A DNA stretch of 64,000 nt. Origin: a virus. The DNA lies in IMG/VR virus record IMGVR_UViG_3300045988_137804, positions 1 through 64,000 of that record; one strand, given 5' to 3'. Made by a program: the position numbers and the translations under genes. Shown here piece after piece: positions 1-35,730 of this stretch; the stretch's first letter is position 1; every line of letters starts with the position of its first letter. The notes under the pieces are model-generated. The model was not told where the DNA came from, ran no database searches, and worked only from the letters and a program-made list of their open reading frames with translations.

Positions 1-55
1 TCAAATTCACAGAAGTTTACCAGTTTCCAATCTTTTTTGAATGAATTTATGCTTT
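1..55. repeat. Left arm of a perfect 55-bp inverted repeat. It is the reverse complement of 185..239 and is cut by the window edge, so it may extend further left.
   Basis: Direct comparison: revcomp(185..239) equals 1..55 exactly. The match breaks at 56 and 184. Confidence 0.9.
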
Positions 56-167
56 TATCAGTATTCATAAAAATCCCTTATTTATAGGGGATTGCGCAAT
101 CTCTTTATTCTAGAATTTACCTGTTTTCACCTTTCTTAATTTTAAAAACTCCTCGCTTTCAAGGCAT

Positions 168-1679
168 TTGCAACTACCATGTGAAAGCATAAATTCATTC
201 AAAAAAGATTGGAAACTGGTAAACTTCTGTGAATTTGATAAGTATGCAACAAAATCATACTGTGCAATTCATGGTGTAGATGAATCATTGAATCTTGGTG
301 ATATTACAAAAGTTGATGAGACAAATCTTGAACAATTTAATATGATTTGTGGAGGTAGCCCGTGTCAGGATTTTTCTGTAGCAGGTAAACAAAAGGGTTC
401 TGTTTGGACTTGTAAAGAATGTGGACATGAATATAATCCATTAACAGTTCATTGGGCTGAACGTGATAAGTGTCCAAATTGCAACAGTGAAAATATTGAA
501 AAGACAAGATCATCATTACTTGTTGAATATTTAAGAGTTATCAGAGCAAATAAACCAAATTTTGGAATTTATGAGAATGTAAAGAACATTGTCGGTAGAC
601 AGTTTAAAGACACAACATTTAAATTGTTTACTGATGAGTTGGAAGAATACGGATATAACGTGTATTGGAAGGTGCTTAATGCAAAGAATTATGGTATTCC
701 ACAAAATAGGGAGCGTGTGTATCTGATTTTTATTAAGAAAGATTTGGATAATGGTAAGTTTAAATTTCCAGAACCATTTGATAATGGTGTTAGATTGAAA
801 GATTTATTGGAAGACGTTGTTGATCAAAAATATTATCTTAGCAAAGAAGTTCAAGATAGATTCAAGCTAACTGATGATACTTTTACAAAAAATATTATTG
901 GCACAACAAAACCAGAGTTTAGAACAATCGGTCAAAGAGATTTGGTATATCAGAAAGATTCCGTAATGGGTGCATTAGTAGCAATAGATTATAAGCAACC
1001 GAAACAGATTTTGGATAATGATATTAAAACAGTTGCAATTCCACAAGCCACCAAAAAAGGTTACATAGAATGTGAAATTGGTGGAGTTGCAGATTTATCA
1101 TATCCAGATTCTAAAACTAGACGTGGAAGAGTACAAGATGGTGGTAATATTTGTCCAACATTAACTGCTACAGAGACAGGTGTATGTAGAATCGAATCTG
1201 TTGAAGACAAGCCTAAAGAAAGATTTTTTAGACAAGCATTAGATACATTTGATGATTCCGATGCAGAATATGGAGATACAATTGATGCATTTAATAAAAG
1301 AGTAAATAAATCGGGCTGTTCACCTACATTAACGACAAGACCAGAAGGGTTTAAAACAGCTATTTTGCCAGTAACAAATAATTTACGAGTAAGAAAATTA
1401 ACTCCGAAAGAATGCTTTAGACTTATGGGATTTTCGGATGAAAATTTCAATGCAGCACATAATGCAGGTATTTCAAATTCGCAGTTGTATAAGCAAGCTG
1501 GAAATTCAATCGTGGTAGATGTTTTATATTACATATTTGTTGAGCTGTATAAAGCCATGCCATATCTTTTTGATGATTTAAAGTTAAGCAGTTTCTTCTC
1601 AGGAATCGGAGCATTTGAAGTGGCATTGGACAGATTATACAAAGGAATTAATTTTGGAAATTTTACAAATTCACATTAA
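168..1679 (+). CDS. DNA (cytosine-5)-methyltransferase of the Dcm/M.HhaI family. Motif order is permuted, with motif I at the C-terminus, and a zinc ribbon is inserted between motifs IV and VI.
   Basis: GGSPCQDFSVAG (motif IV, PCQ), ENV (motif VI), QNRERVY (motif VIII), RKLTPKECFRLMGF (IX) and QAGNSIVV (X) are all present. FFSGIGAFEVAL (motif I, FxGxG) comes last. The N-terminus NFCEFDKYATKSY aligns with the region that follows motif I in M.HhaI. There is a CxxC...CxxC insert. Confidence 0.85.
   Translation: MQLPCESINSFKKDWKLVNFCEFDKYATKSYCAIHGVDESLNLGDITKVDETNLEQFNMICGGSPCQDFSVAGKQKGSVWTCKECGHEYNPLTVHWAERDKCPNCNSENIEKTRSSLLVEYLRVIRANKPNFGIYENVKNIVGRQFKDTTFKLFTDELEEYGYNVYWKVLNAKNYGIPQNRERVYLIFIKKDLDNGKFKFPEPFDNGVRLKDLLEDVVDQKYYLSKEVQDRFKLTDDTFTKNIIGTTKPEFRTIGQRDLVYQKDSVMGALVAIDYKQPKQILDNDIKTVAIPQATKKGYIECEIGGVADLSYPDSKTRRGRVQDGGNICPTLTATETGVCRIESVEDKPKERFFRQALDTFDDSDAEYGDTIDAFNKRVNKSGCSPTLTTRPEGFKTAILPVTNNLRVRKLTPKECFRLMGFSDENFNAAHNAGISNSQLYKQAGNSIVVDVLYYIFVELYKAMPYLFDDLKLSSFFSGIGAFEVALDRLYKGINFGNFTNSH
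185..239. repeat. Right arm of the 55-bp inverted repeat. It lies inside the methyltransferase coding sequence, codons about 6-24.
   Basis: Same comparison. It encodes ESINSFKKDWKLVNFCEFD in the + frame. Confidence 0.9.
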
Positions 1680-1699
1680 GCGAAAGGAACTGTCTATAT

Positions 1700-1993
1700 A
1701 TGGATAATTATTGTCTTAAATATTCAATTTATATTTTTGACGAAGAAGGAAAACTTTATGATTTAGTACATTCTAAATTTGGAATAAAAATAATTATGCA
1801 TACGAAAGAGAAAGGTCATAAAGAACCACATGTGCATGTCAAGTACGAAAATAAAGAAGCAGTGCTAAGTTTGATAGATGGAAGATTTATGAAAGGAAAC
1901 ATACATCCAAACAAAAGGAAATATGCGGAAGAATGGGTAATGAATAACAAAGAGGAACTTCTAAAAAGGTATAAAGAAGTGATTGTTTTATGA
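1700..1993 (+). CDS. DUF4160-family protein
   Basis: Signature KEPHVHVKYENKEAVLSLIDG (the conserved xPHFHVxY core). It is followed by an ORF that overlaps by 4 bp. Confidence 0.6.
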   Translation: MDNYCLKYSIYIFDEEGKLYDLVHSKFGIKIIMHTKEKGHKEPHVHVKYENKEAVLSLIDGRFMKGNIHPNKRKYAEEWVMNNKEELLKRYKEVIVL

Positions 1994-2247
1994 ATCACAT
2001 AGAGAACACAATAGCTGTAAAATATGAAAACTTTAAGGAGAGAATAAACATTATGACGATTAAATTTATTAAAGATGTTGTCTTCAAAGACCAAAAAGAA
2101 GACAGTGTAAAGATTAAAAAAGGAAAGATTCTCACAGCAAAGGTTGTAAGAAACGAAGATGGTAAGGAAGAATATGAGATTACTCATAGGAAAAATACAT
2201 TCATGATTCCATCTTCTATGAAAGATGTAGTATTTGAGATTTTGTAA
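1990..2247 (+). CDS. Small protein, probably the DUF2442-like partner of the DUF4160 gene
   Basis: ATGA stop/start overlap with the upstream gene. Size and pairing are typical of the DUF4160/DUF2442 couple. Confidence 0.4.
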   Translation: MNHIENTIAVKYENFKERINIMTIKFIKDVVFKDQKEDSVKIKKGKILTAKVVRNEDGKEEYEITHRKNTFMIPSSMKDVVFEIL

Positions 2248-2309
2248 ATTTGTTCAGATTCTTTTGGAGAATAAGTAAGTATACAAATAATGATTGCGAG
2301 GTATATAAA

Positions 2310-2819
2310 ATGCTTAACAAAGAACAAAAGAATCTGGTGGAAGAAAATTATAATCTTACATATAAATATGCAAAAGATCACAAGTTGGATATGGAAGAAT
2401 TCAGTGGATTGCTTTCTATTGGTTTGTGTAAAGCTGCGTTAAATTACGATTCAGATAAAACAAAGTTCTCTACGTTTGCATACAGATGTATGGGAAATGA
2501 AGTAAGTAATTATCTGAGAAAAGTTAATGCAGGTAAATACTTGAGACATGATGAAGTATATTCCATGGAAGCATTGAATGAAAACGAGAATAGAGCTATA
2601 GAAGAGACATTTCTTATGACTTCATCGGAGAATATTGAGATAGACTATATGTTCAAGGCTAAGTTTCAGAAAGAATATGACAAGCTGAAAGACCAGGTTA
2701 AGAACATTGTTGCTCTCAAATATCATGGATACACAAACAATGAAGTTGCAGAAATTATGAATATAAAAGCATCTACTATAAGTATGGCTTTGAAAAAGTT
2801 CAAATATGCGCTGGTATAA
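2310..2819 (+). CDS. Sigma-70 family RNA polymerase sigma factor (phage-encoded)
   Basis: Region-2-like segment LVEENYNLTYKYAK...FSTFAYRCMGNEV and region-4 HTH ALKYHGYTNNEVAEIMNIKASTISMALKKF. GAGGT sits upstream of the ATG at 2310. The ORF frame is open from 2250. Confidence 0.7.
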   Translation: MLNKEQKNLVEENYNLTYKYAKDHKLDMEEFSGLLSIGLCKAALNYDSDKTKFSTFAYRCMGNEVSNYLRKVNAGKYLRHDEVYSMEALNENENRAIEETFLMTSSENIEIDYMFKAKFQKEYDKLKDQVKNIVALKYHGYTNNEVAEIMNIKASTISMALKKFKYALV

Positions 2820-2870
2820 ATGCTATATTATGAGATATATAGATAATATTGTGTGTTGCAATAAATCGTA

Positions 2871-2916
2871 ATACTACATGTAGTATATAAATATATCATC
2901 ACACACTATATATAGT
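2871..2916. promoter_or_regulatory. 16-bp perfect palindrome ATACTACATGTAGTAT (2871..2886) followed by the motif ACACACTATATATAGT (2901..2916). The same motif recurs at 11948..11963.
   Basis: Seen directly. The second copy overlaps a TTGACA -35 element. Confidence 0.5.
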
Positions 2917-2977
2917 ATTAAAATATAGATGAAATGCGAATTTCATTGGTGGAGAATATATAAGCGGAGGTGATAAC

Positions 2978-3502
2978 GTGGGAACAAATTATTACATGAT
3001 GATGAAGGACAAGGAACTTGCAATGAAGTATTTCGATAATGAGTACGAGCTTACAGATACTCCGTATTTTGGCTATGAAGTACATATCATGAAACTGAGT
3101 TATGGTTGGAAACCTTTATTTGAGTGGCATGGGAATGCGTATAAATCAGTAGAAGATATGCTAAAGTTCTTGGAATTTCATAGAATGGATATTGATATTT
3201 TTGACGAATATAATCGAGAATATACCATTGAAGAATTAAAAGAAGAGTTCGTAAGTCATAAAAATGTAAAACCAAGATATATGAAACATATTCCAGAAGG
3301 CATTCCGAATCATACATTTGGTGGTAGAGATTATTTAGCTGAGTCCACTGAGGATGATTATGACATTAAAATGCCATATGACCATGTAGAGTATCATAAA
3401 TTAGATCCTTACAATGAAAAAAGATGGATAGATGAAAGTAGAGAGCCATTATATTTTCACGATAAGGATGGTTATGATTTTACGAAAGGATGGTTCGAAT
3501 AA
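2978..3502 (+). CDS. hypothetical protein
   Basis: ORF with a GGAGGTG ribosome-binding site. No motif recognised. Confidence 0.5.
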   Translation: MGTNYYMMMKDKELAMKYFDNEYELTDTPYFGYEVHIMKLSYGWKPLFEWHGNAYKSVEDMLKFLEFHRMDIDIFDEYNREYTIEELKEEFVSHKNVKPRYMKHIPEGIPNHTFGGRDYLAESTEDDYDIKMPYDHVEYHKLDPYNEKRWIDESREPLYFHDKDGYDFTKGWFE

Positions 3503-3612
3503 TGAATAAACCAACATTATGGGTTATGGTTGGCTTGTCTGGAAGTGGTAAATCAAGTGTTGCAAAAGAAATCGCAGAGAATAATCCTAAGAAGGAGATG
3601 AATAACAAATAA
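3502..3612 (+). pseudogene. 36-codon remnant of a P-loop NTPase/kinase (Walker A GLSGSGKSS), truncated just upstream of the homing endonuclease
   Basis: MNKPTLWVMVGLSGSGKSSVAKEIAENNP then a stop. TAATG coupling to the upstream gene. No continuation was found downstream. Confidence 0.5.
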
Positions 3613-3641
3613 CAAAAAGAAAAATTTATTGTGGAATATAT

Positions 3642-3998
3642 ATGATACGCAATAAAATAAACGATAAAAAATATATAGGTCAAAGTATAGATATATGGTA
3701 TAGATATAGAAATCATTTGAGTGAATCATATAATGTAAACAAAAAAGCTTACAATATGGCAATTCATAAGGCGATAAGAAAATATGGTAAAAGTAATTTT
3801 GAATTAATTGTTTTAGAAGAATGTCCAAAAGAAAAATTAAATGAACGAGAAATTTATTGGATAGAATATTACGATACATACAATGATGGTTACAATCAAA
3901 CAATTGGTGGGGATACATTAAAAAATACAATTGATAGAGCAAATATATATATCGTCTGTGGGATGAAGGAAAATCTATTAAAGACATTCGTGAAATAA
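3642..3998 (+). mobile_element. GIY-YIG homing endonuclease, catalytic domain ORF
   Basis: KYIGQS...YRYRNH...NEREIYWIEYYDTYNDGYN, typical of the I-TevI-like GIY-YIG domain. Confidence 0.8.
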
Positions 3999-4477
3999 CT
4001 AAGCATGGAAAACATCAAATTATTCGTATTTTAGAAGGTTATGATAAATATTCACCTGAAGAAAGCAAGAGAAGAGGATTTTCGTCTGCTTCAAAGACTA
4101 GGGGCAAAACTGTGTATAGATATCAAATGAATGGTGAATATATAGATGAATTTTGGTCAATTGCTGAAGCCGGAAGAAAAACAGGAACAAGAAATACAGA
4201 TATAAGTTTATGCTTAAATGGTTCTCAACAATCTGCAAATAATTATAGATGGAGTTTTGAGAAAAAAGATAATATCGGAGAATACAAAGCGGAGATGGCA
4301 AACAAAAAGAAAGCAGTTATAAAATATGATGAGGACAATAATTTTATTGAAGAATTTGCATCAATTACAGATGCGGCGAAATCAGTAGGGCTAAAAGGTT
4401 TATCTGGAATAATAAAATCATGTGAAAAAGATGTTTTGTGCAAAGGGTATAAGTGGAAATATAAATATCAAATCTAA
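3938..4477 (+). pseudogene. C-terminal DNA-binding part of the same homing endonuclease (NUMOD-like HTH repeats), in the -1 frame relative to the catalytic ORF. The frame switch sits at a (TA)5 repeat, 3943..3952.
   Basis: Manual translation: frame 2 is open from 3938 (…YRLWDEGKSIKDIREITKHGKHQIIRILEGYD…) and continues into the listed ORF 4112..4477, which has two G..W/SI.EA..-type repeats. Confidence 0.6.
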
Positions 4478-4552
4478 GGAACGTTGGAAGAAAAGGTTTG
4501 GAGAATATAAATATCAGATGCTTTTGGATTTTCATGAATGTGATAAAGTGAG

Positions 4553-4909
4553 GTGAGATACATGAGATGTAATACAGATTTGGAGACTTGGCTGCATGAT
4601 TTCGAAGACGATATATTCCGTATCTTAGTTTACAGAAAGCCTGGTCAGTATACTCCATACGAAGTGGAGAATAAGTTTAGTGATGAGTCTTTATATGTAG
4701 ACAATGAATACAAGAAAGTATTTATTGAAGACGTAATTGAACTACCGGACAAAGATGTTCTGATTGGATTTAGAGAAGTTCTTGATGTGAATCAAAATAA
4801 AGACGGAGAATATGAATGTGAGTTGGCAGATAGCATTGAATATTATAAGCTTTCTGAAATTAAACTGGAATGTTTTAAATGTGATCAAGTGATTGGAGGT
4901 GAGTTCTAA
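4553..4909 (+). CDS. hypothetical protein
   Basis: ORF only. Confidence 0.4.
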   Translation: MRYMRCNTDLETWLHDFEDDIFRILVYRKPGQYTPYEVENKFSDESLYVDNEYKKVFIEDVIELPDKDVLIGFREVLDVNQNKDGEYECELADSIEYYKLSEIKLECFKCDQVIGGEF

Positions 4910-5169
4910 TGGATATTTTCCAAAACATTGTATTGATCTTCATGGGAGTATTGCTCTTAGGAATTTTGGTTGCATTTTCAATCCTATTAGAGAAGTTCAT
5001 GGAGCTGTCAGACGAAGTACATAAGAAACTCTTTGAAATGTCAGTAGAGAATAATACAAATGTAGATGATGGATTCATTCTTGGAGATGAGTTCTTGACA
5101 GAAGACGAATTGACAAATGAAAGCGATGAAGATTCAAGAGAAGAATTCGGAATTTATTCTGAACGATAA
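4909..5169 (+). CDS. Small membrane protein with an acidic C-terminus
   Basis: Hydrophobic N-terminal segment. TAATG overlap with the upstream gene. Confidence 0.4.
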   Translation: MDIFQNIVLIFMGVLLLGILVAFSILLEKFMELSDEVHKKLFEMSVENNTNVDDGFILGDEFLTEDELTNESDEDSREEFGIYSER

Positions 5170-5384
5170 AAGAGTAATAGTATTATGGTTATACGTCAGA
5201 TATGAGGACAAATTCTTGCCGTAATCGTTCAAGATTAACAATTGGATACTGAAAAATAAAGAACTGAATTTGCTCTATGTATATATCAAATAGTAAGCAA
5301 TATATGATGTATTTTTGGACTTAAATTAGCTTAATTAAACTAACTAATTTTTGTATAAATATTTAAAAAAGAGGAGAAAGAAAA

Positions 5385-6965
5385 ATGGTAAATGAGATTA
5401 TTAATGGACTTGGTGTTTTAGTTCCTGTAGTGATTGTAGGAGCAGGTGGAATTGGAATTGTTGGTTCTGGATATGTAAAAGCATCGCCAGATAAAGCCTA
5501 TATCATTTCTGGTTTAAGAAAAGATCCAAAAGTTCTTATTGGAAAAGCTGGGCTTAAGATTCCATTCTTTGAAAAGAAAGACGAGCTAAATCTTCAGTTA
5601 ATTCCAATTGATGTAAAAACATCAAGTGCAGTTCCAACAGCAGATTACATCAACATTAACGTTGATGCAGCAGTAAACGTAAAGGTAAGTAGCGACACAG
5701 AAAGACTTAAACTTGCAGCAGAGAACTTTCTTAATAAACCAACTGACTACATTGGACAGGTTGCAAGAGAAGTTCTTGAGGGTAATATGCGTGAGATTGT
5801 TGGCAAAATGAACTTGGAAGAAATGGTTTCCGATCGTCAGAAGTTTGCAGAACTCGTAAAAGAAAATGCCGAACCAGATCTTGCTGCAATGGGACTCGAC
5901 ATTGTGAGCTTCAATGTACAGAATTTTGTTGATGAAAATGGAGTAATTGAAAATCTTGGTGTTGACAACATTGTTAAAATTCAGAAAAATGCAGCTATTT
6001 CAAGAGCTGATAGCGAAAAAGAAATTGCCAAGGCTCGTGCTATGGCTAAAAAAGAAGCGAATGATGCAGAGGTAACTTCTGAATTGGAAATTGCAAATGC
6101 TCAGGCTGAAGCACAGAAGAAGAAAGCAATTGTACAGGCTAACGCAGATAGAGAGTCAAGAGAAGCTCAAATTGCAGCAGACACACTTATTGCACAGAAA
6201 GAAAATGAACTTGAAATTAAAAAAGCAGAACTTCAGAAAGATGCTGATACGAAAAAGGCTTCAGCAGATGCAGCTTATAGTATTCAGGAAGAAAATGAAA
6301 GAAAATCTGTGGAGATTGCTACGGCAGATGCTAATCTTGCTAAACAGGAAAAAGCTGTGGAGATTAAAGAGAAAGAGATTGCACTCACAGAAAAAACTCT
6401 TGAAGCTACTGTAAAGAAACAGGCTGAAGCAGAAAAATATGCAAAACAGCAGGAAGCAGATGCAAGACTGTATGAAACACAGAGAAAATCAGAAGCAAAT
6501 CTTTTTGAGAGACAGAAAAATGCTGAAGCAGAGAAGTTTGAACGTGAGAAAGAAGCTGAAGCTATGAAAGCAACAGCAGAAGCTAACAAATATGCTATGG
6601 AACAGGAAGCAGAAGGTATTCGTAGTAAAGGACAGGCTGAAGCCGATGCAATCAAAGCAAAAGCTCTTGCAGAAGCAGAAGGTATTCAGAAGAAAGCAGA
6701 AGCAATGAAACAGATGGGTGAAGCAGCAGTTCTTGATATGTATTTCAAAGCTATGCCAGAAATCGCCAAGAATATCGCAGAACCTCTTGCCAAAGTTGAC
6801 AAAATTACAATGTATGGAGATGGAAACTCTTCAAAATTGATGAAAGATATCATGAACACTCTTAATCAGGTTACAGATGGTATGAAAGAGTCAACTGGAA
6901 TCGACTTAAATTCTATTCTTGCAGGTTTTGCAGGTGCTAAAATTGCTGAATCTACAGACAAATAA
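5385..6965 (+). CDS. Flotillin-like SPFH/band-7 protein (FloA/YqiK type)
   Basis: An N-terminal transmembrane segment, an SPFH domain, then a long Ala/Glu/Lys-rich coiled coil. Strong ribosome-binding site AAAGAGGAG. GC content is visibly higher than in the flanks. Confidence 0.8.
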   Translation: MVNEIINGLGVLVPVVIVGAGGIGIVGSGYVKASPDKAYIISGLRKDPKVLIGKAGLKIPFFEKKDELNLQLIPIDVKTSSAVPTADYININVDAAVNVKVSSDTERLKLAAENFLNKPTDYIGQVAREVLEGNMREIVGKMNLEEMVSDRQKFAELVKENAEPDLAAMGLDIVSFNVQNFVDENGVIENLGVDNIVKIQKNAAISRADSEKEIAKARAMAKKEANDAEVTSELEIANAQAEAQKKKAIVQANADRESREAQIAADTLIAQKENELEIKKAELQKDADTKKASADAAYSIQEENERKSVEIATADANLAKQEKAVEIKEKEIALTEKTLEATVKKQAEAEKYAKQQEADARLYETQRKSEANLFERQKNAEAEKFEREKEAEAMKATAEANKYAMEQEAEGIRSKGQAEADAIKAKALAEAEGIQKKAEAMKQMGEAAVLDMYFKAMPEIAKNIAEPLAKVDKITMYGDGNSSKLMKDIMNTLNQVTDGMKESTGIDLNSILAGFAGAKIAESTDK

Positions 6966-6998
6966 TCTGTACATAGTTTAATTTTACACATTCCAACT

Positions 6999-7535
6999 TT
7001 GCATAGTGTCACAGCTATGCAGAGTATTTCTAAAAATAATATGAGAGGAAGTGATTGTGTGGTTAATTTAGAACCACGGATGATGCAAAAAGTACAAAAG
7101 TGTTTAGAAACACATGTTGGTGGTGAAGCATATTTTAATGAATTAGACGCTGCGATTAAATCAGATGAAAATCTTTTGAAGTCTTTCATTAATCGCATTG
7201 TCATAGAAACGAAGTGTCGCAACTTTGTAATGTCAGGTGAAATTGGTGTTGTATATTCTAAATTATATTCATACGATGACATTCATTTGTTGTTGCTGCC
7301 AGGTGGCTTGAGACACGATAAAGAAATTCCTTATGACATTGGGAGAATATATGAAGGAATGGAATTTGTATTCGTAGACGATTCATATTACTCAGGAAAA
7401 ACTTTGAATGCTGTGAAGAAATATATGGAATCTACTGGTGCAAAAATCATTGCAAATTATGTTTTCTACGATGGTAGCAGAGAAAATAAAGATAATGTGA
7501 GATCAATTTACAGATATTATGATCATCACGAATAA
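6999..7535 (+). CDS. Type I phosphoribosyltransferase-fold protein
   Basis: PRPP-binding motif EFVFVDDSYYSGKTL. The true start is uncertain; M candidates at 7043 and 7078. Confidence 0.6.
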   Translation: MHSVTAMQSISKNNMRGSDCVVNLEPRMMQKVQKCLETHVGGEAYFNELDAAIKSDENLLKSFINRIVIETKCRNFVMSGEIGVVYSKLYSYDDIHLLLLPGGLRHDKEIPYDIGRIYEGMEFVFVDDSYYSGKTLNAVKKYMESTGAKIIANYVFYDGSRENKDNVRSIYRYYDHHE

Positions 7536-7549
7536 GGAGAATAACATAT

Positions 7550-7747
7550 ATGGGAAGAAAATTCAGATGGTTGGATGCAATCAGGACAATGAATGTAAAT
7601 GATCTTGCACCATATTTAATAAAGGAATGTTTCAATTTTCATGATGGAACATGGTGGTCATCTCCAAGTGGTAATAAATTTGATTATCATGATGATGCTC
7701 TTGAAGATTGTATTCGGTGGTTAAATTCTAAATATGATGGGAGATAA
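7550..7747 (+). CDS. hypothetical protein
   Basis: ORF with a GGAGA ribosome-binding site. Confidence 0.35.
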   Translation: MGRKFRWLDAIRTMNVNDLAPYLIKECFNFHDGTWWSSPSGNKFDYHDDALEDCIRWLNSKYDGR

Positions 7748-7755
7748 TAATTATT

Positions 7756-8127
7756 ATGGGATGGTATGAAGAGTACAAGACTGATGAATATATAAAAAGT
7801 CTCCAGTCTGTAGTAGAAGGATTAAAAACAAAAGATAAGACAATTAATTCACTACAAGAAGAGAATAATAGATTGAGAGATGAACATTACAAGGATGGAG
7901 AGTTAAAGAAATTGCAAGAAAAAATTGATAAGTTGCAAGGCGACTGTAATAGAGGATTTCCAATTAGTTTCAATGAGCAAGAAGTGATTGATGAATTTCG
8001 AGAAGAACACAAGAAGGAATGTCCTCATTGTAGCTTCAAATACATATTTGAGCCTTATTCGATTGTTGAGTTTGGATATCTAAAATGCAATGTTTGTGGT
8101 GAAGAAATAAAATTTGCAGAACGGTGA
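7756..8127 (+). CDS. Coiled-coil protein with a C-terminal zinc ribbon (CPHC...CNVC)
   Basis: Seen in the translation. Confidence 0.4.
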   Translation: MGWYEEYKTDEYIKSLQSVVEGLKTKDKTINSLQEENNRLRDEHYKDGELKKLQEKIDKLQGDCNRGFPISFNEQEVIDEFREEHKKECPHCSFKYIFEPYSIVEFGYLKCNVCGEEIKFAER

Positions 8128-8169
8128 TGGAGAATAAGTAATTAAAGGTTATAGAAAGGAGTTTGTGAA

Positions 8170-8592
8170 ATGAGATTTTCTGAAGCAATCGAACATCTTC
8201 TTAACGGAGAACGCATAAAGGAAGCGTGTTGGGAAAATGGTTATTACATCAAGCTGGAAAACGACAAAATTGTGGATTGTGATGGATCAGCAGAAGTGTT
8301 CGATAGTAAAGACATTATATCTAACGATTGGGAGCTATATCAGCCTAAATTAGATGTAGGTGCGGTTATTCAATACAATGACGGTACAATCGGAATTGTG
8401 CTTAGTTTATCTGAACTAGATAAGGAATACATCATTTTAGATGAGAATTGGTGCGTAGAAACAGTGAATGAAAGCCAGGTTTCATTAATCAATATTGACT
8501 ATGGAAAAGTTAGTTTGCATGAAGATTCTGCGAGTAAAAATCTCAAAAGTATAGTTTTATCATTACAGATGATTTCAGAGTTAGTAAATTAA
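8170..8592 (+). CDS. DUF2829-like protein, a possible Tad2-type anti-Thoeris sponge homolog (tentative)
   Basis: N-terminus MRFSEAIEHLLNGERIKEACWENGYYI resembles the F-EAl--Lk-Gk-v-R-gW opening of DUF2829. Called from memory of that family only. Confidence 0.3.
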   Translation: MRFSEAIEHLLNGERIKEACWENGYYIKLENDKIVDCDGSAEVFDSKDIISNDWELYQPKLDVGAVIQYNDGTIGIVLSLSELDKEYIILDENWCVETVNESQVSLINIDYGKVSLHEDSASKNLKSIVLSLQMISELVN

Positions 8593-8666
8593 TGATTTTA
8601 TCCACTACGAAGTGGAGAATAAATAAGTATAAAGTTTAAGTTTCAAAGATTAAAGGAGAAAACATT

Positions 8667-9311
8667 ATGAGTACAATTGAGAAAATGAGTGTTCACAAAG
8701 CATTAGCAGAGTTAAAGATTATTGATTCCAGAATTGAGAGATCAATTGATGATGCACAGTTCTGTGTAGCAAACAAACATTCTAATGAAAAGATTAATGG
8801 TATTCCGGTTGAGGACGCTAAGAAGTTAATGGTTGGAAGTTACGACAAAGCATCAGATCTTATTAAGAGAAGAAATGCAATCAAGAGAGCAGTTGTGCTT
8901 TCTAATGCTAAGACAATTGTTACGATTGCAGACAGAGAATATACTGTTGCAGAAGCAATTGAGATGAAAAATCATGGCATTGAGTTTGAGGAATTTCTTT
9001 TAAATGAAATGAGATGTCAATACGCAGATGCTAATAGAACTATCTCAGCAGAGAATGGCGAAAAACTGAGTGAAAGAGCAGATAAATTTGTCATTGACAT
9101 GTATGGATCAAAAGAGGGTAAAACAAATACTGCTGATTTTGAGAAAGCAAAGAAAGATTTTATCACAGCAAATTCTTATGACTTGGTTGATCCACTTGAT
9201 ATCAAGAAGAAGATTGATGAATTGGAAGAATATATCTCAAACTTCAAGACAGAAGTAGATGCTGCATTAAGTGTTAGCAATGCTATTACAGAAACTACTG
9301 TAGAGTATTAG
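8667..9311 (+). CDS. hypothetical protein
   Basis: ORF with an AAAGGAGAA ribosome-binding site. Confidence 0.5.
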   Translation: MSTIEKMSVHKALAELKIIDSRIERSIDDAQFCVANKHSNEKINGIPVEDAKKLMVGSYDKASDLIKRRNAIKRAVVLSNAKTIVTIADREYTVAEAIEMKNHGIEFEEFLLNEMRCQYADANRTISAENGEKLSERADKFVIDMYGSKEGKTNTADFEKAKKDFITANSYDLVDPLDIKKKIDELEEYISNFKTEVDAALSVSNAITETTVEY

Positions 9312-9504
9312 AGAATATATAAATAGGAAATTATTTCACTGTTTGCTGAAAACTTAGAACTACAATCATTCAGACTTTTGCAAGTATAGCCTGAATCAAA
9401 ATAATAAAGAAGCTTGCAACATAATAAAACATAAAAAGCAAGTATAGCAAATTATTACAGGAATGCTTGATGCACAGTGTTGAGCGTTTATAAATTACAA
9501 GATG

Positions 9505-9605
9505 ACTGTAAAGAGTAAAGTTCAAATGTCAAGTAGTAAAGCTCAAAATTCAAAGATTATTTTTTATGTAAAGTTTAAGCAGTAAATAGTAAAGATATAA
9601 AGTTT
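9505..9605. repeat. Iteron-like cluster of about 6 (A/T)GTAAAG repeats and TTCAAA repeats in a non-coding region upstream of the tRNA cluster
   Basis: Seen: tgtaaagagtaaagttcaaatgtcaagtagtaaagctcaaaattcaaag…tgtaaagtttaagcagtaaatagtaaagatataaag. Confidence 0.5.
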
Positions 9606-9744
9606 TATAAAATCTTCGACAAACAGTTTTCAGTATGATTGTACTTGGCTGTAAGTTGTCTGCGAAGCTAGTAAATGGTGAATTAATTAATAAATGTCAA
9701 CCTACATAATAATATGCATAGTTGTCGTGAGGGTTGGCAAATAT

Positions 9745-9833
9745 GGATCATTACATCAACTGGTAAGATGAGCTGCCTCATAAGCAGAAAGCCCTAATAA
9801 GGTATAAACTGGGTTCGACTCCCAGATGATCCA
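9745..9833 (+). tRNA. tRNA-like gene with class-II architecture (about 20-nt variable arm) and anticodon CAU. Identity is atypical or unknown.
   Basis: Hand fold: acceptor ggatcat/atgatcc; D-stem catc/gatg; anticodon stem gctgc/gcaga with loop ctCATaa; T-arm ctggg-ttcgact-cccag; discriminator A. Confidence 0.5.
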
Positions 9834-9969
9834 CTGTATCTGAATATTCACAGAATGTGTTATTCGTTTCCTTTCTTTCTATGAACATTCTAGTTCAGAT
9901 ACAATGTTTTTCATAACTTCCTTTTGTTTGGTTGGCAACTTACCATATAGACAAAAAAGTTGCAATAAT

Positions 9970-10038
9970 GGGCTGTGGTGTAATGGTAGCACATAATACT
10001 TTGACTATTATAGATCCAGTTCAAATCTGGACAGCCTA
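9970..10038 (+). tRNA. tRNA-Gln (anticodon UUG)
   Basis: Hand fold: acceptor gggctgt/acagcct (G1·U72); anticodon stem taata/tatta with loop ctTTGac; T-arm ccag-ttcaaat-ctgg. Confidence 0.7.
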
Positions 10039-10124
10039 GCTTGTGAGATTTTGGAACGTCTCACAAATATTACTCCTTTCATGGGTTATTTATAGTGCAA
10101 AAGATGTGCAGAAATGCACATCGA

Positions 10125-10210
10125 GCTGGCATGGCGGAATTGGTAGACGCAATGGACTTAAAATCCATCGGTAAAAACACACCATACGAGTTCGAGTCTC
10201 GTTGCCAGTA
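10125..10210 (+). tRNA. tRNA-Leu (anticodon UAA), class II
   Basis: D-arm tggcggaattggtagacgc is identical to the bacterial tRNA-Leu consensus. Anticodon stem atgga/tccat with loop ctTAAaa. Long variable arm. T-arm acgag-ttcgagt-ctcgt. Acceptor gctggca/tgccagt. Confidence 0.8.
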
Positions 10211-10367
10211 TTAGCCATATGAGACACTTATTCCCTGAGCAAGAATGATGAAGTCGGTACAAAAGTGCTCAATTTCTGTATTTTACATTCGTGTGTTATG
10301 CAAGCAGCACGAATGACATATGGCATTAACCCCCAACATAGGGTATTTACATTTTACAAAAATGGTT

Positions 10368-10437
10368 TGGCTGTTAGTTCAGTGGGAAGAACATCTATTG
10401 CAAGAGAGGGTCACAGGTTCGAGTCCTGTACAGTCAA
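10368..10437 (+). tRNA. tRNA-like element, probably degenerate. Acceptor, D-arm and T-arm are canonical but no regular anticodon arm can be drawn.
   Basis: Acceptor tggctgt/acagtca; D-arm gttc-agtgggaa-gaac; T-arm acagg-ttcgagt-cctgt. The middle segment contains the self-complementary TTGCAA. Confidence 0.35.
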
Positions 10438-10505
10438 CTTGACGCAGAAAACATTTGATTTTTGCATTCATGTTTTGCACGCCTCATTTCTTCAATGTGC
10501 AAAGT

Positions 10506-10627
10506 AGATTGTTAGTTCATTGGTAGAATATCTTATTGAAAAATAATGTAATCCTGTTCTTTTCGCTTTCTTAACGATGTGATGCATTATTAATAGGAAG
10601 AAACACGTTCGAATCGTGTGCAATCTA
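10506..10627 (+). other. Split or interrupted tRNA-like structure. Acceptor/D-arm at 10506..10530 and T-arm/acceptor at 10603..10627, separated by about 70 nt. A cttatt/aatagg stem encloses a 54-nt insertion.
   Basis: Hand pairing of agattgt with gcaatct. T-arm acacg-ttcgaat-cgtgt. Confidence 0.3.
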
Positions 10628-10714
10628 TCAGTCTTGGTTGACTTACCACTTTCAAACGAGGACTTTAAATTCGGTAGTAAAGTGGAGAATAATAATCATA
10701 GGTGGTGAAAAATT

Positions 10715-11056
10715 ATGAGATGTCCGTATTGTGACAAAGAAATGATTAAGAAGTACAAGATTAAGCACTTCTGTAATTTCGATGATCCGTGTGACTCATG
10801 GGAAAAAGAAATACATATCTGTAAGAAGTGTGGTATCAAGAAAGTAGATGGCAAGTGGAAGATTCCACATAAGTACAGAAGACCATCAACTAATCAGATT
10901 CGCAGATGCAAGACTTTAGCTAAGATACACGACATAGATTTTGAGCCACTTCTTGCCAGACAATGCAAGAGATTCATCACAACAATGCTGAAAAAGTTAT
11001 ATGTTCAGGATCATTATTGTGATGGAGAACTCCATATCATTGGAGAGAATAAATAA
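10715..11056 (+). CDS. Cys-rich zinc-finger protein, hypothetical
   Basis: CPYC...C..C...CKKC motifs. Confidence 0.45.
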   Translation: MRCPYCDKEMIKKYKIKHFCNFDDPCDSWEKEIHICKKCGIKKVDGKWKIPHKYRRPSTNQIRRCKTLAKIHDIDFEPLLARQCKRFITTMLKKLYVQDHYCDGELHIIGENK

Positions 11057-11074
11057 GAAAAGGAGATAAGAAAC

Positions 11075-11314
11075 ATGACAAGAGAAGAAAGAATGCAGAA
11101 AAGAAGAGACGCAGGTAAGGTTTATACTTACAAGAAAAATCCTTACGAGAAAGGAACTAAAGAGTGGGTTAAGGAAGAATGTGCGAGAGCAGAGAAAAGA
11201 AAATCCAAGAAACCACATTACGCTAAGATGACTTCTGTGTTTGCCAAGTTAGATAATGAGCTTGCAAAGGCTGAACTTGCTGCAAAGAAGAAGTCTAAAA
11301 AAGAGGGTAAGTAA
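11075..11314 (+). CDS. Small basic protein, hypothetical
   Basis: Lys/Arg-rich ORF with a GGAGA ribosome-binding site. Confidence 0.4.
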   Translation: MTREERMQKRRDAGKVYTYKKNPYEKGTKEWVKEECARAEKRKSKKPHYAKMTSVFAKLDNELAKAELAAKKKSKKEGK

Positions 11315-11551
11315 ATGAGAGAAACTTTATTTTGGATTACCATTATCGTTGGAATCGGACTTGGTATTTACACTGGTGGTTGGTTGTTATTTATTAAACC
11401 GATTATTGTTGCATGTGCTGCATATGACGCAGGGACACTTACAGGAAGTATGATTGGATGGACAATTATCAAATGTTTGGTGTTTGCACCAATTGTTGCA
11501 AGAGTAATTATAAATGTTACACTTACGATTGCAGGAGATATTTTGGATTAA
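11315..11551 (+). CDS. Small membrane protein
   Basis: Two hydrophobic segments. Confidence 0.4.
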   Translation: MRETLFWITIIVGIGLGIYTGGWLLFIKPIIVACAAYDAGTLTGSMIGWTIIKCLVFAPIVARVIINVTLTIAGDILD

Positions 11552-11572
11552 TTTCAATAGGAGAACAAACCA

Positions 11573-11848
11573 ATGATAGAGATTATCGAAACTAATCTTG
11601 CTATAGATGAGAATAAAGATATTAGAGATCATCAGTCTAGAGTAGTTCTTGCAGATGATTGGGAGTCTTATTGCGAAGCATATGAAAAGTATGACGGATC
11701 AAGAGTGACATTTCCATCAAAGAGTCCTGGTGCTAGTATCTATGAAGACAGTAAAATAGAAGATTTAGAATATGACGAGTATCATTTGCATTGCAGAATT
11801 AATAAAGTATATTTTACAGATACAAGATTGGCATACAAAATCAGTTAA
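11573..11848 (+). CDS. hypothetical protein
   Basis: ORF with a GGAGAA ribosome-binding site. Confidence 0.4.
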   Translation: MIEIIETNLAIDENKDIRDHQSRVVLADDWESYCEAYEKYDGSRVTFPSKSPGASIYEDSKIEDLEYDEYHLHCRINKVYFTDTRLAYKIS

Positions 11849-35300: not shown

Positions 35301-35730
35301 TCACGTTCCTGTGTTTGAAAGAATTACAGCATTTGACAAATTTAAAATTGAATCAAAATTCCAAAACCTTAGTCCAGGAGGCGCAATTTCGTATTGTGAA
35401 ATCCCATCAATTAACGTAAATATTCCAGCATTATTGGAAGTAATTAAATTTATTTATGACAATATTATGTACGCAGAAATCAATACAAAAGATTGTTATT
35501 GCGAAGTGTGTGGATACGATGGAGACATTCCACTTATTGACGATGATAACGGTAAACTTGTATGGGAATGCCCTAATTGTGGCAACACAGATAATACAAA
35601 AATGGACATCGCATTTAGAGTTTGTGGTTATGTTGGTACTGCAAAAAATGGTGGAAACCAAGGAAGATATGGAGATATCCACGATAGAGTTTACCACATC
35701 GATGACTTTGAATACGAGGAAAATGAATAA
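32386..35730 (+). CDS. nrdD: Anaerobic ribonucleoside-triphosphate reductase (class III) carrying an in-frame intein
   Basis: ATP-cone N-terminus. C-terminal Zn ribbon CEVCGYDG...CPNCGN and glycyl-radical motif RVCGYVG. Intein at 33574..34677. Confidence 0.85.
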   Translation: MVRVIKRDCSEVDFDKNKISTAILKAMKNGSGIVKPKIAESIADEIEKECKDREEIDISEIEAMVFDKLITKKQRLTARAYEGYRSTREFQRENENTVDEEILGIVEANNEEWKDENANKNPALNPTIRDYIAGSVSKDATKRFLLSPEIIQSHLEGIIHFHDSDYFIQHMHNCGLVNLEDMLQNGTVISETMIEKPHSFSTACTVTTQIIAQVASSQYGGQSISLAHLAPFVDVSREKIRKEVISEQELVGMEYPEDVLNEIVERRLKKEITKGVQTIQYQLITLMTTNGQAPFITIFMYLNEAKNEREKKDLAMLIEEMLLQRKLGVKNEDGVYIAPAFPKLIYVLEDDNCNESTEYWYLTELAAECTSKRLVPDYISEKVMKELKGDVYTCMGCVDGKELVTYTYNNNLYVESFERMWNRLSDRFEIKHQYNDNNPNLYMDLSDVEIYDTDKGFVNTERIIRNISTSWLDVNFSNGRRLLCTEDHPLTLRDGRTIHASELKLKDRILINSHQYNEENIVFNEDKAWLLGFMLCDGCYQGSLFSSIAAENEDEIADKFSETMKKYFDLDIEKKLQQRGKKGTYYDLIAHSQNEKISVYCNYFAKKFEGLNKIDRHVPNEVFSWNYSSKLAFLAGMIDADGYINSSQNKGFSIVQIGSTNKELALQQMALAQSLGMPAKLYHNHYSKRNPELIRYRVEFYPTDELINYIVCKKKYDNYIDSNVSSYNHESEVTEINKINKKMFSYDVTTTSEHFEISGIYSHNCRSFLTVDRFSDKVGNISNAKNFNGKHKYYGRFNQGVVTINLPDIAFSSDGDMDKFWGIFEERTELCHKALKARHNRLLKTSSDIAPILWQNGAYARLKKHEPIDKLLFDGYSTISLGYAGLYECVKYMTGKSHTDGDVGEKFGLEVMQALNDKCNQWKEAENIDYSLYGSPIESTTYKFAKCLKNRFGDDIFIKLDGFDRNYITNSYHVPVFERITAFDKFKIESKFQNLSPGGAISYCEIPSINVNIPALLEVIKFIYDNIMYAEINTKDCYCEVCGYDGDIPLIDDDNGKLVWECPNCGNTDNTKMDIAFRVCGYVGTAKNGGNQGRYGDIHDRVYHIDDFEYEENE
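33574..34677 (+). mobile_element. Intein of 368 aa with a LAGLIDADG homing-endonuclease domain, inserted in NrdD between ...YTCMG and CRSFL
   Basis: Starts with Cys (CVDGKEL) and ends ...SHN followed by Cys. LAGLIDADG motifs LLGFMLCDG and LAGMIDADG. Confidence 0.8.

What the first reader, a model, noticed from the sequence alone, without database searches (positions are those of the whole stretch)
168..1679. Circularly permuted C5 cytosine methyltransferase with a zinc-ribbon insertion
Motifs occur in the order IV (GGSPCQDFS) - VI (ENV) - VIII - target-recognition domain - IX - X (QAGNSIVV) - I (FFSGIGAFEVAL). The ORF stops 12 codons after motif I. The N-terminus (KLVNFCEFDKYATKSY) is the segment that normally follows motif I, and the C-terminal tail GINFGNF repeats that same segment. 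This pattern is what the duplication/truncation route to permuted methyltransferases would leave behind. A CxxC...(about 20 aa)...CxxC zinc ribbon sits between motifs IV and VI, which is unusual for this family.
Basis: partly seen in the sequence, partly recalled or inferred. Interest (0 to 1): 0.55.

Follow-up and report, generated by a model that had tools for sequence, protein, structure and literature searches.

The report
Permuted phage cytosine methylase behind invertible switch
This huge-phage gene encodes a DNA cytosine-5 methyltransferase whose first conserved block (the SAM-binding motif I) has moved to the very end of the protein, a natural arrangement I could not find described, and its start codon sits on a 128-bp DNA segment that flips, so the enzyme is probably switched on and off.

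Summary
ORF 168-1679 is a C5 DNA methyltransferase (Pfam 201 bits, TIGR00675 215 bits) that starts at profile position about 20 and carries motif I at residues 471-491. A profile of canonical relatives' N-termini splits exactly across the two ends. The motif is under purifying selection, and AlphaFold2 models it as a confident strand plus helix.

The architecture is not a one-off. 118 of the 120 best homologues share it, as do dozens of 50%-identity clusters from gut phages and Lachnospiraceae prophages.

The closest characterised relative is the multispecific SPβ/φ3T methylase (33% identity). It already has the zinc ribbon, so the ribbon is not new. The variable region is built from shuffled TRD-like modules.

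New here: the called TTG start is an artefact of an inverton. Window 56-183, flanked by 9-13 bp inverted repeats, carries the Shine-Dalgarno site and ATG on the opposite strand. Otherwise identical contigs hold both orientations. Window 1-55 is a 55-nt assembly overlap from the other orientation. No invertase was found.

The parts
1..55 (.). Left arm of a perfect 55-nt inverted repeat with 184-238. Positions 1-46 are not in the otherwise identical genome LR756492.1. I read them as an assembly-graph overlap (k=55) coming from reads of the other inverton orientation. Only 43-55 (core 47-55, TTATGCTTT) is the real left inverted repeat.
   Evidence: window 47-11679 is 100% identical to L001; only positions 1-46 differ. 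(13-nt IR GAAATTATGCTTT/AAAGCATAAATTC in L006).
56..183 (.). Invertible segment (128 bp), here in orientation B. Its minus strand carries a Shine-Dalgarno-like AAGGGA (74-79) and an ATG (66-68). It also holds two palindromes, ATTGCGCAAT (91-100) and ATTCTAGAAT (107-116), and a weak terminator-like hairpin (151-164, minus strand).
   Evidence: the same segment is reversed between the same flanks in L002-L005; in L012 versus L013 the spacer is the exact reverse complement while 477+2096 nt of flank are identical; in-silico inversion gives a 502-aa ATG ORF; the hairpin.
184..196 (.). Right inverted repeat (core 184-192, AAAGCATAA). It lies inside the coding sequence (codons S-I-N).
168..1679 (+). 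C5 DNA methyltransferase ORF as callable in orientation B (TTG start, no good Shine-Dalgarno site). The orientation-independent coding body runs from about 184 to 1679.
216..248 (+). Motif II (LVNFCEFDKYA). This is the strand that normally follows motif I, and here it is almost at the N-terminus.
   Evidence: AF2 strand 15-21 with pLDDT above 84.
351..377 (+). Motif IV (GGSPCQDFS) with the catalytic cysteine.
   Evidence: P65 and C66 invariant.
399..503 (+). Zinc-ribbon insertion (CKEC...16 aa...CPNC) in the catalytic loop. It takes the place of about one residue of M.HhaI, between G92 and E94.
   Evidence: Zn_ribbon_8 and HypA hits below cut-off. (alignment gap). (four Cys invariant). (120/120 homologues). 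(pLDDT 80-96). (also present in SPβ MtbP).
504..716 (+). Motifs V (TRSSLLVEY), VI (ENV, 573-581), VII and VIII (QNRER, 702-716).
831..1382 (+). Variable region with three TRD-like modules: a ...GALVAIDYKQP, b ...CPTLTATETG, c ...SPTLTTRPEG. Homologues carry 2-6 such modules in different combinations.
   Evidence: AF2 confidence is low here.
1386..1523 (+). Motifs IX (RVRKLTPKECFRLMGFS) and X (QLYKQAGNSIVVDV).
1557..1577 (+). Linker MPYLFDD, joining the helix after motif X to the relocated motif I strand.
   Evidence: M464, P465, Y466, L467 and F468 invariant..
1578..1640 (+). Relocated motif I (LKLSSFFSGIGAFEVALDRLY): strand beta-1, the glycine loop and helix alpha-A of the SAM-binding fold.
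   Evidence: HMM i-E 1.2e-8. (71% identity to SPβ MtbP residues 4-20). (conserved in 118/120). (strand 471-476 and helix 482-495, pLDDT about 95). (15 synonymous versus 1 nonsynonymous changed codons against L010).
1641..1679 (+). 12-residue tail KGINFGNFTNSH plus the stop codon. It varies across the family and has no demonstrable homology to the post-motif-I segment.

Best explanation
The gene encodes a functional orphan DNA cytosine-5 methyltransferase of a roughly 204-kb gut phage. It belongs to the SPβ/φ3T-like subfamily, which carries a zinc ribbon in the catalytic loop.

Permutation. The polypeptide is a natural circular permutant. It begins just before motif II and runs through IV-VIII, the target-recognition modules, and IX and X. 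An invariant linker (MPYLFDD) then leads to motif I (strand, FSGIG loop, helix), and 12 residues later the protein ends. In the folded protein the C-terminal motif I should occupy the central beta-1/alpha-A position of the Rossmann-type SAM-binding sheet, next to the N-terminal beta-2 (inferred from the AF2 model and family knowledge).

Target recognition. The variable region holds three TRD-like modules. Relatives swap, gain and lose such modules, so the enzyme probably methylates more than one target sequence and protects phage DNA from host restriction (inferred).

Expression switch. Expression depends on a 128-bp invertible segment flanked by 9-13 bp inverted repeats (shown). In orientation A the segment puts a Shine-Dalgarno site and an ATG in frame, giving MNTDK-SINSFKK.... 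In orientation B, the state in this window, the body has only a TTG without a usable ribosome-binding site, so the enzyme is most likely off or strongly reduced (inferred). The recombinase is unidentified.

Origin. The permutation most likely arose by fusion of tandem methylase genes followed by truncation at both ends (inferred).
For: Family membership and motif order.

The permutation:
- The profile of canonical N-termini splits between the C- and N-termini of this ORF.
- The pairwise split against SPβ MtbP agrees.
- Moving the last 40 residues to the front raises the Pfam score from 201 to 208.9 bits.

Conservation:
- 118/120 best homologues have C-terminal motif I, 0/120 have N-terminal motif I, and 120/120 have the ribbon.
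- The key residues are invariant across 41 sequences.
- Dozens of 50%-identity clusters share the topology.
- The C-terminal 28 codons show 15 synonymous versus 1 nonsynonymous changed codons against L010.

Structure:
- The AF2 model has pTM 0.74, and the C-terminal strand and helix reach pLDDT about 95.
- The best fold match is M.HhaI.

Biological context:
- Modular TRD combinations.
- Phage or prophage context with no neighbouring nuclease.

Inverton:
- The segment is reversed between identical flanks.
- Four protein pairs are identical over 497-535 aa except for the first 5-6 residues.
- About 20 orientation-A and 22-24 orientation-B cluster representatives.
- The 55-nt inverted overlap at the contig edge.
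- In-silico inversion gives a 502-aa ATG ORF with AAGGGA 5 nt upstream.

Origin:
- In-frame tandem methylase genes in Bacillus phage BC-VP.
- A contig with X-linker-I-II contiguous.
Against: - No activity, methylome or expression data exist.
- The first AF2 run, with a shallow alignment, failed (pLDDT 39). The good model cannot be inspected for contacts with these tools, so packing of motif I is inferred from confidence values only.
- The TRD region is modelled poorly, and no target sequence can be assigned.
- Orientation B is as common as A in assemblies, including the complete genome. The φ3T methylase is annotated with a TTG start. Orientation B might therefore still be translated, and the switch might change level or N-terminus rather than turn the enzyme off.
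- No promoter could be assigned.
- No invertase was found in the window or in 10 kb upstream.
- The claimed tail vestige is not significant.
Confidence: 0.75

Rival explanations
1. The C-terminal motif I is a dead remnant of a truncated downstream methylase gene that happens to be fused in frame. Either the protein is inactive, or it obtains SAM binding in some other way, for example in trans from the neighbouring methylase-like protein.
For: Tandem methylase genes are common in phages. A second methylase-like gene lies immediately upstream in the complete genome.
Against: - Motif I and its linker are invariant across relatives down to about 45% identity.
- Substitutions there are almost all synonymous.
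- No family member keeps an N-terminal motif I.
- AF2 folds the segment confidently.
- Engineered permutants opened at residue 35 (M.MpeI) or 33 (M.SssI) are active (PMC5944983).
Confidence: 0.05
2. The ORF architecture or the inverted repeat is an assembly or gene-calling artefact.
For: Window 1-46 is indeed not genomic sequence at that place. The called TTG start is doubtful.
Against: - The same ORF architecture occurs in more than 100 cluster representatives from independent assemblies made with different assemblers. These include an isolate genome (Coprococcus sp. HPP0074) and a complete phage genome.
- Both inverton orientations occur inside long contigs with intact flanks.
Confidence: 0.02
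3. The two orientations of the 128-bp segment are fixed strain polymorphisms left by rare past inversions, not an actively switching phase-variable element. Alternatively, orientation B is also expressed, so the element has little regulatory effect.
For: - No invertase gene was found nearby.
- The inverted repeats are short (9-13 bp).
- Orientation B dominates in some lineages.
- TTG starts are used by related phage methylases (H18 annotation).
Against: - Four independent lineages each occur in both orientations with zero other differences in the protein. One pair has zero differences in 2.6 kb of DNA.
- The window's own contig ends in a 55-nt overlap that can only come from reads of the other orientation in the same data set.
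- The Shine-Dalgarno site and ATG are placed so that only one orientation gives a canonical start.
Confidence: 0.15
4. The enzyme uses the C5-methyltransferase fold for a different reaction or substrate, for example a cofactor other than SAM as in DNA C5-carboxymethyltransferase, or RNA as in Dnmt2.
For: Fold matches include Dnmt2 and the C5-carboxymethyltransferase 8yf3.
Against: - Those matches are weaker than the match to M.HhaI.
- All catalytic motifs are canonical.
- The closest characterised relative (33% identity) is the DNA methylase of SPβ.
Confidence: 0.05

Closest known systems
Multispecific C5 methyltransferases of Bacillus subtilis phages SPβ and φ3T (MtbP / M.SPBetaI, M.Phi3TI)
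   Same: - 33% identity over the whole catalytic core.
- The same CxxC...CxxC insertion after motif IV.
- Phage-encoded orphan enzyme.
- Variable region built of several TRD-like modules with (S/A)PTLT cores.
- By established knowledge, these enzymes methylate several unrelated targets to evade host restriction.
   Different: - The SPβ and φ3T enzymes have the canonical order I-X, with motif I at residues 4-20.
- No inverton is known for them.
- The TRD modules of the window protein are not recognisably the same ones.
Natural circularly permuted C5 methyltransferases (M.BssHII, M.Alw26I, M2.Eco31I, M.Esp3I, M2.BsaI and about 22 REBASE entries)
   Same: Motif X precedes motif I within one polypeptide. 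Both are thought to arise by duplication or fusion followed by truncation.
   Different: - Those enzymes are opened in the variable region (order IX-X-I...VIII), which leaves both structural domains intact (PMC5944983).
- Here the break is between motifs I and II, inside the SAM-binding subdomain.
Engineered permutants cp35M.MpeI and cp33M.SssI (and the type B cp62/cp58)
   Same: The new N-terminus lies shortly after motif I. That this is between motifs I and II is my inference from the residue numbers. The engineered proteins are active in vivo, which shows the topology is compatible with catalysis.
   Different: They are artificial and poorly soluble. The authors found no natural counterpart among 20,677 REBASE sequences, although their motif-I pattern would match SFFSGIG.
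M.HhaI (solved structures)
   Same: Best structural match (TM 0.67 normalised to M.HhaI). Motifs II-X align.
   Different: M.HhaI has the canonical order, no zinc ribbon and a single TRD.
Invertible expression switches (fimS of E. coli with 9-bp inverted repeats; gut-bacterial invertons; Type I hsdS 'epigenetic invertons')
   Same: - A short DNA segment between short inverted repeats.
- Both orientations occur in a population.
- Orientation decides whether expression signals face the gene.
- The target is a DNA-modification function, as in hsdS invertons (PMC7672463, PMC9881135).
   Different: - The element sits in a phage genome.
- It carries the Shine-Dalgarno site, the start codon and the first five codons rather than a demonstrated promoter.
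- One inverted repeat lies inside the coding sequence.
- It controls an orphan C5 methylase.
- No invertase has been identified.
- The fimS details come from my own knowledge and were not checked here.

Membership tests
C5 DNA cytosine methyltransferases (PF00145 / TIGR00675) | Profile match above the curated cut-off | tested here: met
   PF00145 scores 201 bits (cut-off 22). TIGR00675 scores 215.5 bits (cut-off 100.65).
C5 DNA cytosine methyltransferases (PF00145 / TIGR00675) | Catalytic motifs IV (PCQ), VI (ENV), VIII (QxRxR), and IX and X (GN) | tested here: met
C5 DNA cytosine methyltransferases (PF00145 / TIGR00675) | SAM-binding motif I (FxGxG) present | tested here: met
   Present at residues 476-481, at the C-terminus.
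C5 DNA cytosine methyltransferases (PF00145 / TIGR00675) | Canonical linear order I to X | tested here: not met
   The order is II-IV-V-VI-VIII-TRD-IX-X-I.
C5 DNA cytosine methyltransferases (PF00145 / TIGR00675) | SAM-dependent formation of 5-methylcytosine in DNA | not testable with these tools
   Needs enzymology or a methylome.
M.BssHII-type natural circular permutants | New termini in the variable region, with motifs IX-X preceding I-VIII | tested here: not met
   The break lies between motifs I and II. The definition is from PMC5944983.
Permutants opened between motifs I and II (engineered type A of PMC5944983) | N-terminus after the motif I helix; motif I joined to the C-terminal helix after motif X | tested here: met
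   HMM columns 3-22 align to the C-terminus and columns 23-32 to the N-terminus. The linker is MPYLFDD.
SPβ/φ3T-type multispecific phage methyltransferases | Sequence relationship, including the zinc-ribbon insertion after motif IV | tested here: met
   BLASTP E = 8e-65, 33% identity, with the ribbon aligned.
SPβ/φ3T-type multispecific phage methyltransferases | Several TRDs in tandem in one variable region | tested here: inconclusive
   The window protein has three TL-type modules, and relatives show combinatorial module sets. The modules were not shown to be independent TRDs, and the AF2 model is poor in this region.
SPβ/φ3T-type multispecific phage methyltransferases | Methylation of more than one unrelated target sequence | not testable with these tools
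   Needs a methylome.
Invertons (site-specific invertible switches) | Segment flanked by inverted repeats | tested here: met
   Core TTATGCTTT/AAAGCATAA, extended to 13 nt with one mismatch.
Invertons (site-specific invertible switches) | Both orientations found in otherwise identical DNA | tested here: met
   L012 versus L013: 0 differences in 2573 nt of flank, and the spacer is the exact reverse complement. Four identical protein pairs.
Invertons (site-specific invertible switches) | Orientation couples or uncouples expression signals | tested here: met
   By sequence only: the Shine-Dalgarno site plus ATG are in frame in orientation A, and orientation B has no ATG or Shine-Dalgarno site. 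Expression was not measured.
Invertons (site-specific invertible switches) | Cognate invertase (serine or tyrosine recombinase), usually nearby | tested here: not met
   phmmer with Hin, TP901-1 integrase and XerD against all six-frame ORFs of the window and L001 gave no hit with E < 0.04. About 130 kb of the genome was not examined.
Invertons (site-specific invertible switches) | Switching within a clonal population | tested here: inconclusive
   The 55-nt inverted overlap at the contig edge implies both orientations in one data set. No reads were available.
Type II restriction-modification system | Cognate restriction endonuclease gene adjacent | tested here: not met
   Neighbours are another methylase-like gene, a DhiT-like toxin, a sigma factor and small phage ORFs. 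No nuclease domain was called next to the gene.

The most novel reading that the evidence does not exclude
A huge gut phage keeps a multi-target cytosine methylase under a reversible DNA-inversion switch. Every lysate would then contain both methylated and unmethylated genomes, a bet-hedge between hosts that restrict unmethylated DNA and hosts that restrict methylated DNA.

The enzyme itself would represent a natural, recurrent 'motif I last' topology of C5 methyltransferases that was thought not to occur in nature. The rough tree suggests it may have arisen more than once.
Probability: 0.4. Interest if true: 0.75.

Novelty: new variant of a known kind. Interest (0 to 1): 0.6.

Why it matters
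Enzyme evolution. A 2018 survey of 20,677 REBASE sequences concluded that every natural permuted C5 methylase is opened in the variable region and that nature favours routes that keep the two domains intact. This large family is opened inside the SAM-binding subdomain. It shows that the route demonstrated only in the laboratory is used in nature, possibly repeatedly.

Engineering. The family offers natural, soluble scaffolds for split or permuted methylases used in targeted methylation.

Phage biology. An inversion switch on a phage-borne, probably multispecific methylase would be a simple way to diversify the epigenetic state of progeny. It is directly testable with long-read metagenomes that already exist.

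Annotation. About half of the database entries for this gene carry a wrong start (MQLPCE...) because of the inverton.

Tried and rejected
- Megablast of window 1-4000 against 50,697 phage records gave no match.
- AlphaFold2 with 41 close homologues gave pLDDT 39, which is unusable. Only the broader 69-sequence alignment worked.
- I tested whether the C-terminal tail is a vestige of the segment after motif I. An HMM of canonical columns scored real tails no better than shuffled ones: 56% of shuffles reached the real median. Rejected as evidence.
- The sigma-70 promoter scan of 1-2300 found fewer sites than in shuffles and none usable in the invertible segment. No promoter was assigned.
- Recombinase search with Hin, TP901-1 integrase and XerD against all six-frame ORFs of the window and L001 found nothing.
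- The palindromes ATTGCGCAAT and ATTCTAGAAT and the inverted-repeat core do not recur in the window above chance. There is no evidence for a shared operator or for further invertons with the same sites.
- The more distant lineage P0083 (L010) has no comparable inverted repeat upstream. The inverton is specific to this phage clade.
- Literature searches for a natural 'motif I last' C5 methylase, for a zinc ribbon in C5 methylases, and for phage methylase invertons found no description. The library lacks most subscription journals.
- A real large inverted duplication at the left edge of the window was rejected. LR756492.1 is identical from position 47 onwards and has a different gene there.
Full report
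**The observation.** ORF 168-1679 (+, 503 aa, TTG start) is present as described. It is a C5 DNA methyltransferase: Pfam PF00145 scores 201 bits in two stretches, and TIGR00675 'dcm' scores 215.5 bits with residues 14-459 on profile positions 20-328 of 329. Alignment to M.HhaI and translation of the sub-ranges give these positions:
- Motif II: 216-248.
- Motif IV (GGSPCQDFS): 351-377.
- CxxC-16-CxxC insertion: 399-503.
- Motif V: 504-530.
- Motif VI (ENV): 573-581.
- Motif VIII (QNRER): 702-716.
- Variable region: 831-1382.
- Motif IX: 1386-1436.
- Motif X: 1482-1523.
- Linker MPYLFDD: 1557-1577.
- LKLSSFFSGIGAFEVALDRLY: 1578-1640.
- Then 12 residues and the stop.

**Is the terminal FSGIG segment really motif I?**
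- The N-terminal 148 residues alone match Pfam positions 22-83, so the first ~20 positions are missing there.
- I built a 32-column HMM from the N-termini of 43 canonical-order relatives found in the representative search. Against all six-frame ORFs of the window it hits only this ORF.
- The hit is split. Columns 3-22 (LkVlSLFSGIGAFekALenl) align to residues 471-490 with i-Evalue 1.2e-8. Columns 23-32 (gIdyelVgyc) align to KKDWKLVNFC at the N-terminus.
- BLASTP against the SPβ methylase MtbP shows the same split. Query 14-460 aligns to subject 26-433 (33% identity, E = 8e-65), and query 471-487 aligns to subject 4-20 (71% identity).
- Moving the last 40 residues to the front raises the Pfam score from 201 to 208.9 bits.
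- The break therefore lies between the motif I helix and the motif II strand.

**Is it a functional arrangement?**
- The identical protein is encoded in LR756492.1, a 204.6-kb phage genome.
- Of the 120 best database clusters (55-100% identity), 118 end with motif I 15-30 residues before the stop, none has an N-terminal motif I, and all have the four cysteines.
- In an alignment of 41 members, the linker, the strand, the FSGxG loop and the helix are invariant.
- Across the 28 codons of linker plus motif I, the window differs from the Coprococcus prophage copy (L010) at 15 synonymous and 1 nonsynonymous codons.
- A search of 1.84 billion 50%-identity representatives shows the same topology in dozens of clusters. 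A few of them lack the ribbon. Many canonical-order relatives, with or without the ribbon, appear alongside.
- AlphaFold2 with 41 close homologues failed (pLDDT 39).
- With 69 sequences including representatives, AlphaFold2 gave pTM 0.74. The catalytic domain has pLDDT above 90. A strand at 471-476 and a helix at 482-495 reach pLDDT about 95, and strand 15-21 is also confident.
- The best PDB match is M.HhaI.
- I could not inspect contacts, so the placement of motif I in the sheet is inferred.

**Zinc ribbon.** The insertion replaces about one residue of the M.HhaI catalytic loop and is modelled confidently. It is not peculiar to the permuted proteins. SPβ MtbP has it at the same place, and so do many canonical-order relatives. 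It is absent from every solved C5 methylase returned by the searches. I found no paper that mentions it.

**Target recognition.** The variable region of the window protein contains three modules with TL-type cores: GALVAIDYKQP, CPTLTATETG and SPTLTTRPEG. Among the 120 homologues the two modules nearest motif IX are nearly constant. One to four further modules are swapped in more than 20 combinations, even among near-identical phages. This resembles the multispecific SPβ/φ3T enzymes, which by established knowledge carry several TRDs in tandem. Specificity cannot be read from the sequence. The surrounding genes are phage genes without a nuclease partner, both here and in the 'bacterial' copies, which lie in prophage-like regions.

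**The start of the gene is on an inverton.**
- Window 1-55 is the perfect reverse complement of 184-238.
- The window is 100% identical to LR756492.1 from position 47 to at least 11679. Positions 1-46 differ, and the complete genome has the 3' end of another methylase-like gene there.
- Related contigs show the 128-bp segment (window 56-183) in either orientation between the same flanks.
- In the pair L012/L013 the flanks (477 + 2096 nt) are identical, and the 127-nt spacer is the exact reverse complement.
- Four pairs of database proteins are identical over 497-535 residues and differ only in the first 5-6 residues, MN(T/S/N)(D/N)K versus MQLPCE. The two forms are about equally frequent among cluster representatives, about 20 versus 22-24.
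- The repeats are TTATGCTTT/AAAGCATAA, extendable to 13 nt with one mismatch.
- Inverting the segment in silico puts AAGGGA 5 nt upstream of an ATG and gives a 502-aa ORF, MNTDKSINSFKKDWKLVNF....
- In the orientation present in the window there is no ATG and no usable Shine-Dalgarno site. Gene callers fall back on TTG at 168.
- I read the 55-nt arm at the window edge as a k=55 assembly-graph overlap produced by reads of the other orientation in the same sample. This is an inference; no reads were available.
- No serine or tyrosine recombinase was detected in the window or in the 10 kb upstream. No promoter could be assigned.
- A more distant lineage lacks the repeats.

**Origin.** Two observations still fit the fusion/truncation route.
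- Bacillus phage BC-VP has canonical methylase genes in tandem, with the stop of the first directly followed in frame by the ATG and motif I of the second.
- One low-coverage contig (L014) encodes IX-X, the same MPYLF linker, and then I-II-IV...VIII in one frame. It contains frameshifts and is unresolved.

A rough neighbour-joining tree interleaves permuted and canonical sequences and separates a ribbon-less permuted group. That hints at more than one origin, but the tree is not robust.

**Comparison with what is known.** PMC5944983 lists the natural permuted C5 methylases (M.BssHII, M.Alw26I, M2.Eco31I, M.Esp3I, M2.BsaI and 22 REBASE entries). [quoted passage not shown] Its search pattern for motif I would match SFFSGIG, yet no such protein was reported among 20,677 sequences. 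The same paper shows that engineered permutants opened at residue 35 (M.MpeI) or 33 (M.SssI) are active in vivo. I infer from the numbering that this site lies between motifs I and II. Programmed inversions that alter DNA-modification genes are known for Type I hsdS, BREX PglX and N6 methylases (PMC7672463, PMC9881135). The published screen required repeats of at least 22 bp and would miss this element.

**Verdict.** The protein is a member of the C5 methyltransferase family by every sequence criterion except motif order. It is not of the M.BssHII type. Its nearest characterised relatives are the multispecific SPβ/φ3T enzymes, which share the ribbon. What is new is a widespread natural 'motif I last' topology and an inversion switch that carries the gene's start signals. 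Function, targets, the effect of the switch and the recombinase remain to be shown.

Noticed in passing
window 39853-44318 (+), possibly from 39462: Three consecutive genes resemble a Tn7/Tn5053-type transposition module inside the phage genome: a 602-aa protein with the Mu transposase C-terminal domain, a TniB-type AAA ATPase, and a TniQ protein (Pfam). A 133-aa ORF with no Pfam hit lies just upstream.
   Followed up: partly
L001 8945-9871 (the gene immediately upstream of the window in LR756492.1): A second, 308-aa C5-methylase-like gene with unusual motifs: LSLCGGVETG in place of FxGxG, and STCCQ in place of PCQ. TIGR00675 gives only 79 bits, below the cut-off. Its stop lies about 10 nt before the left inverted repeat.
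   Followed up: partly
window 1700-1993 and 1990-2247 (+): A DUF4160 / DhiT-like toxin homologue (NCBIfam toxin_DhiT, E = 4e-13, below the cut-off) is followed by an overlapping 85-aa ORF. This may be a toxin-antitoxin pair directly downstream of the methylase.
   Followed up: no
window 91-100 and 107-116: Two perfect 10-bp palindromes, ATTGCGCAAT and ATTCTAGAAT, lie inside the invertible segment. They occur nowhere else in the window above chance. They could be binding sites for a regulator or a recombinase accessory factor.
   Followed up: partly
homologues P0031, P0043, P0047, P0048: Some family members carry an intein (Hint domains PF14890/PF13403) inserted right after the catalytic cysteine of motif IV (GGSPC | ...intein... 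| QDFS).
   Followed up: no
L007 2426-4708 (Bacillus phage BC-VP) and similar Bastille-like phages: Three methylase genes lie in a row. The first two are in the same frame, with the stop codon directly followed by the ATG, so tblastn reads through them as if they were one permuted protein.
   Followed up: yes
L014 1-2100 (ERZ842375 NODE_23350, coverage 3.5): This contig encodes TRD fragments, then IX-X-linker-I-II-IV-VI-VIII in one ORF, then more TRD-like pieces in other frames. It could be a fused tandem intermediate, a BssHII-like permutant or a decaying gene. A G7 run sits next to the ORF start.
   Followed up: partly
window 32386-35730 (+): A 1114-aa anaerobic ribonucleotide reductase-like ORF appears to contain a LAGLIDADG-type intein (seen by eye in the translation). 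NrdG-like, dUTPase-like, ThyX-like, FolD-like, DNA ligase and Pol III alpha-like ORFs lie nearby. None was checked with profiles.
   Followed up: no
window 2250-2819 (+): A phage-encoded sigma-70 family factor, with ECF or sporulation-sigma-like matches, lies 0.6 kb downstream of the methylase. Phage promoters may therefore not resemble the sigma-70 consensus used in the scan.
   Followed up: no
database entries for this gene (e.g. P0001-P0012, P0035): About half of the public protein records start with MQLPCE... (one with MLSRHLQLPCE...). Gene callers chose a TTG inside the inverted segment, so these N-termini are probably not real.
   Followed up: yes
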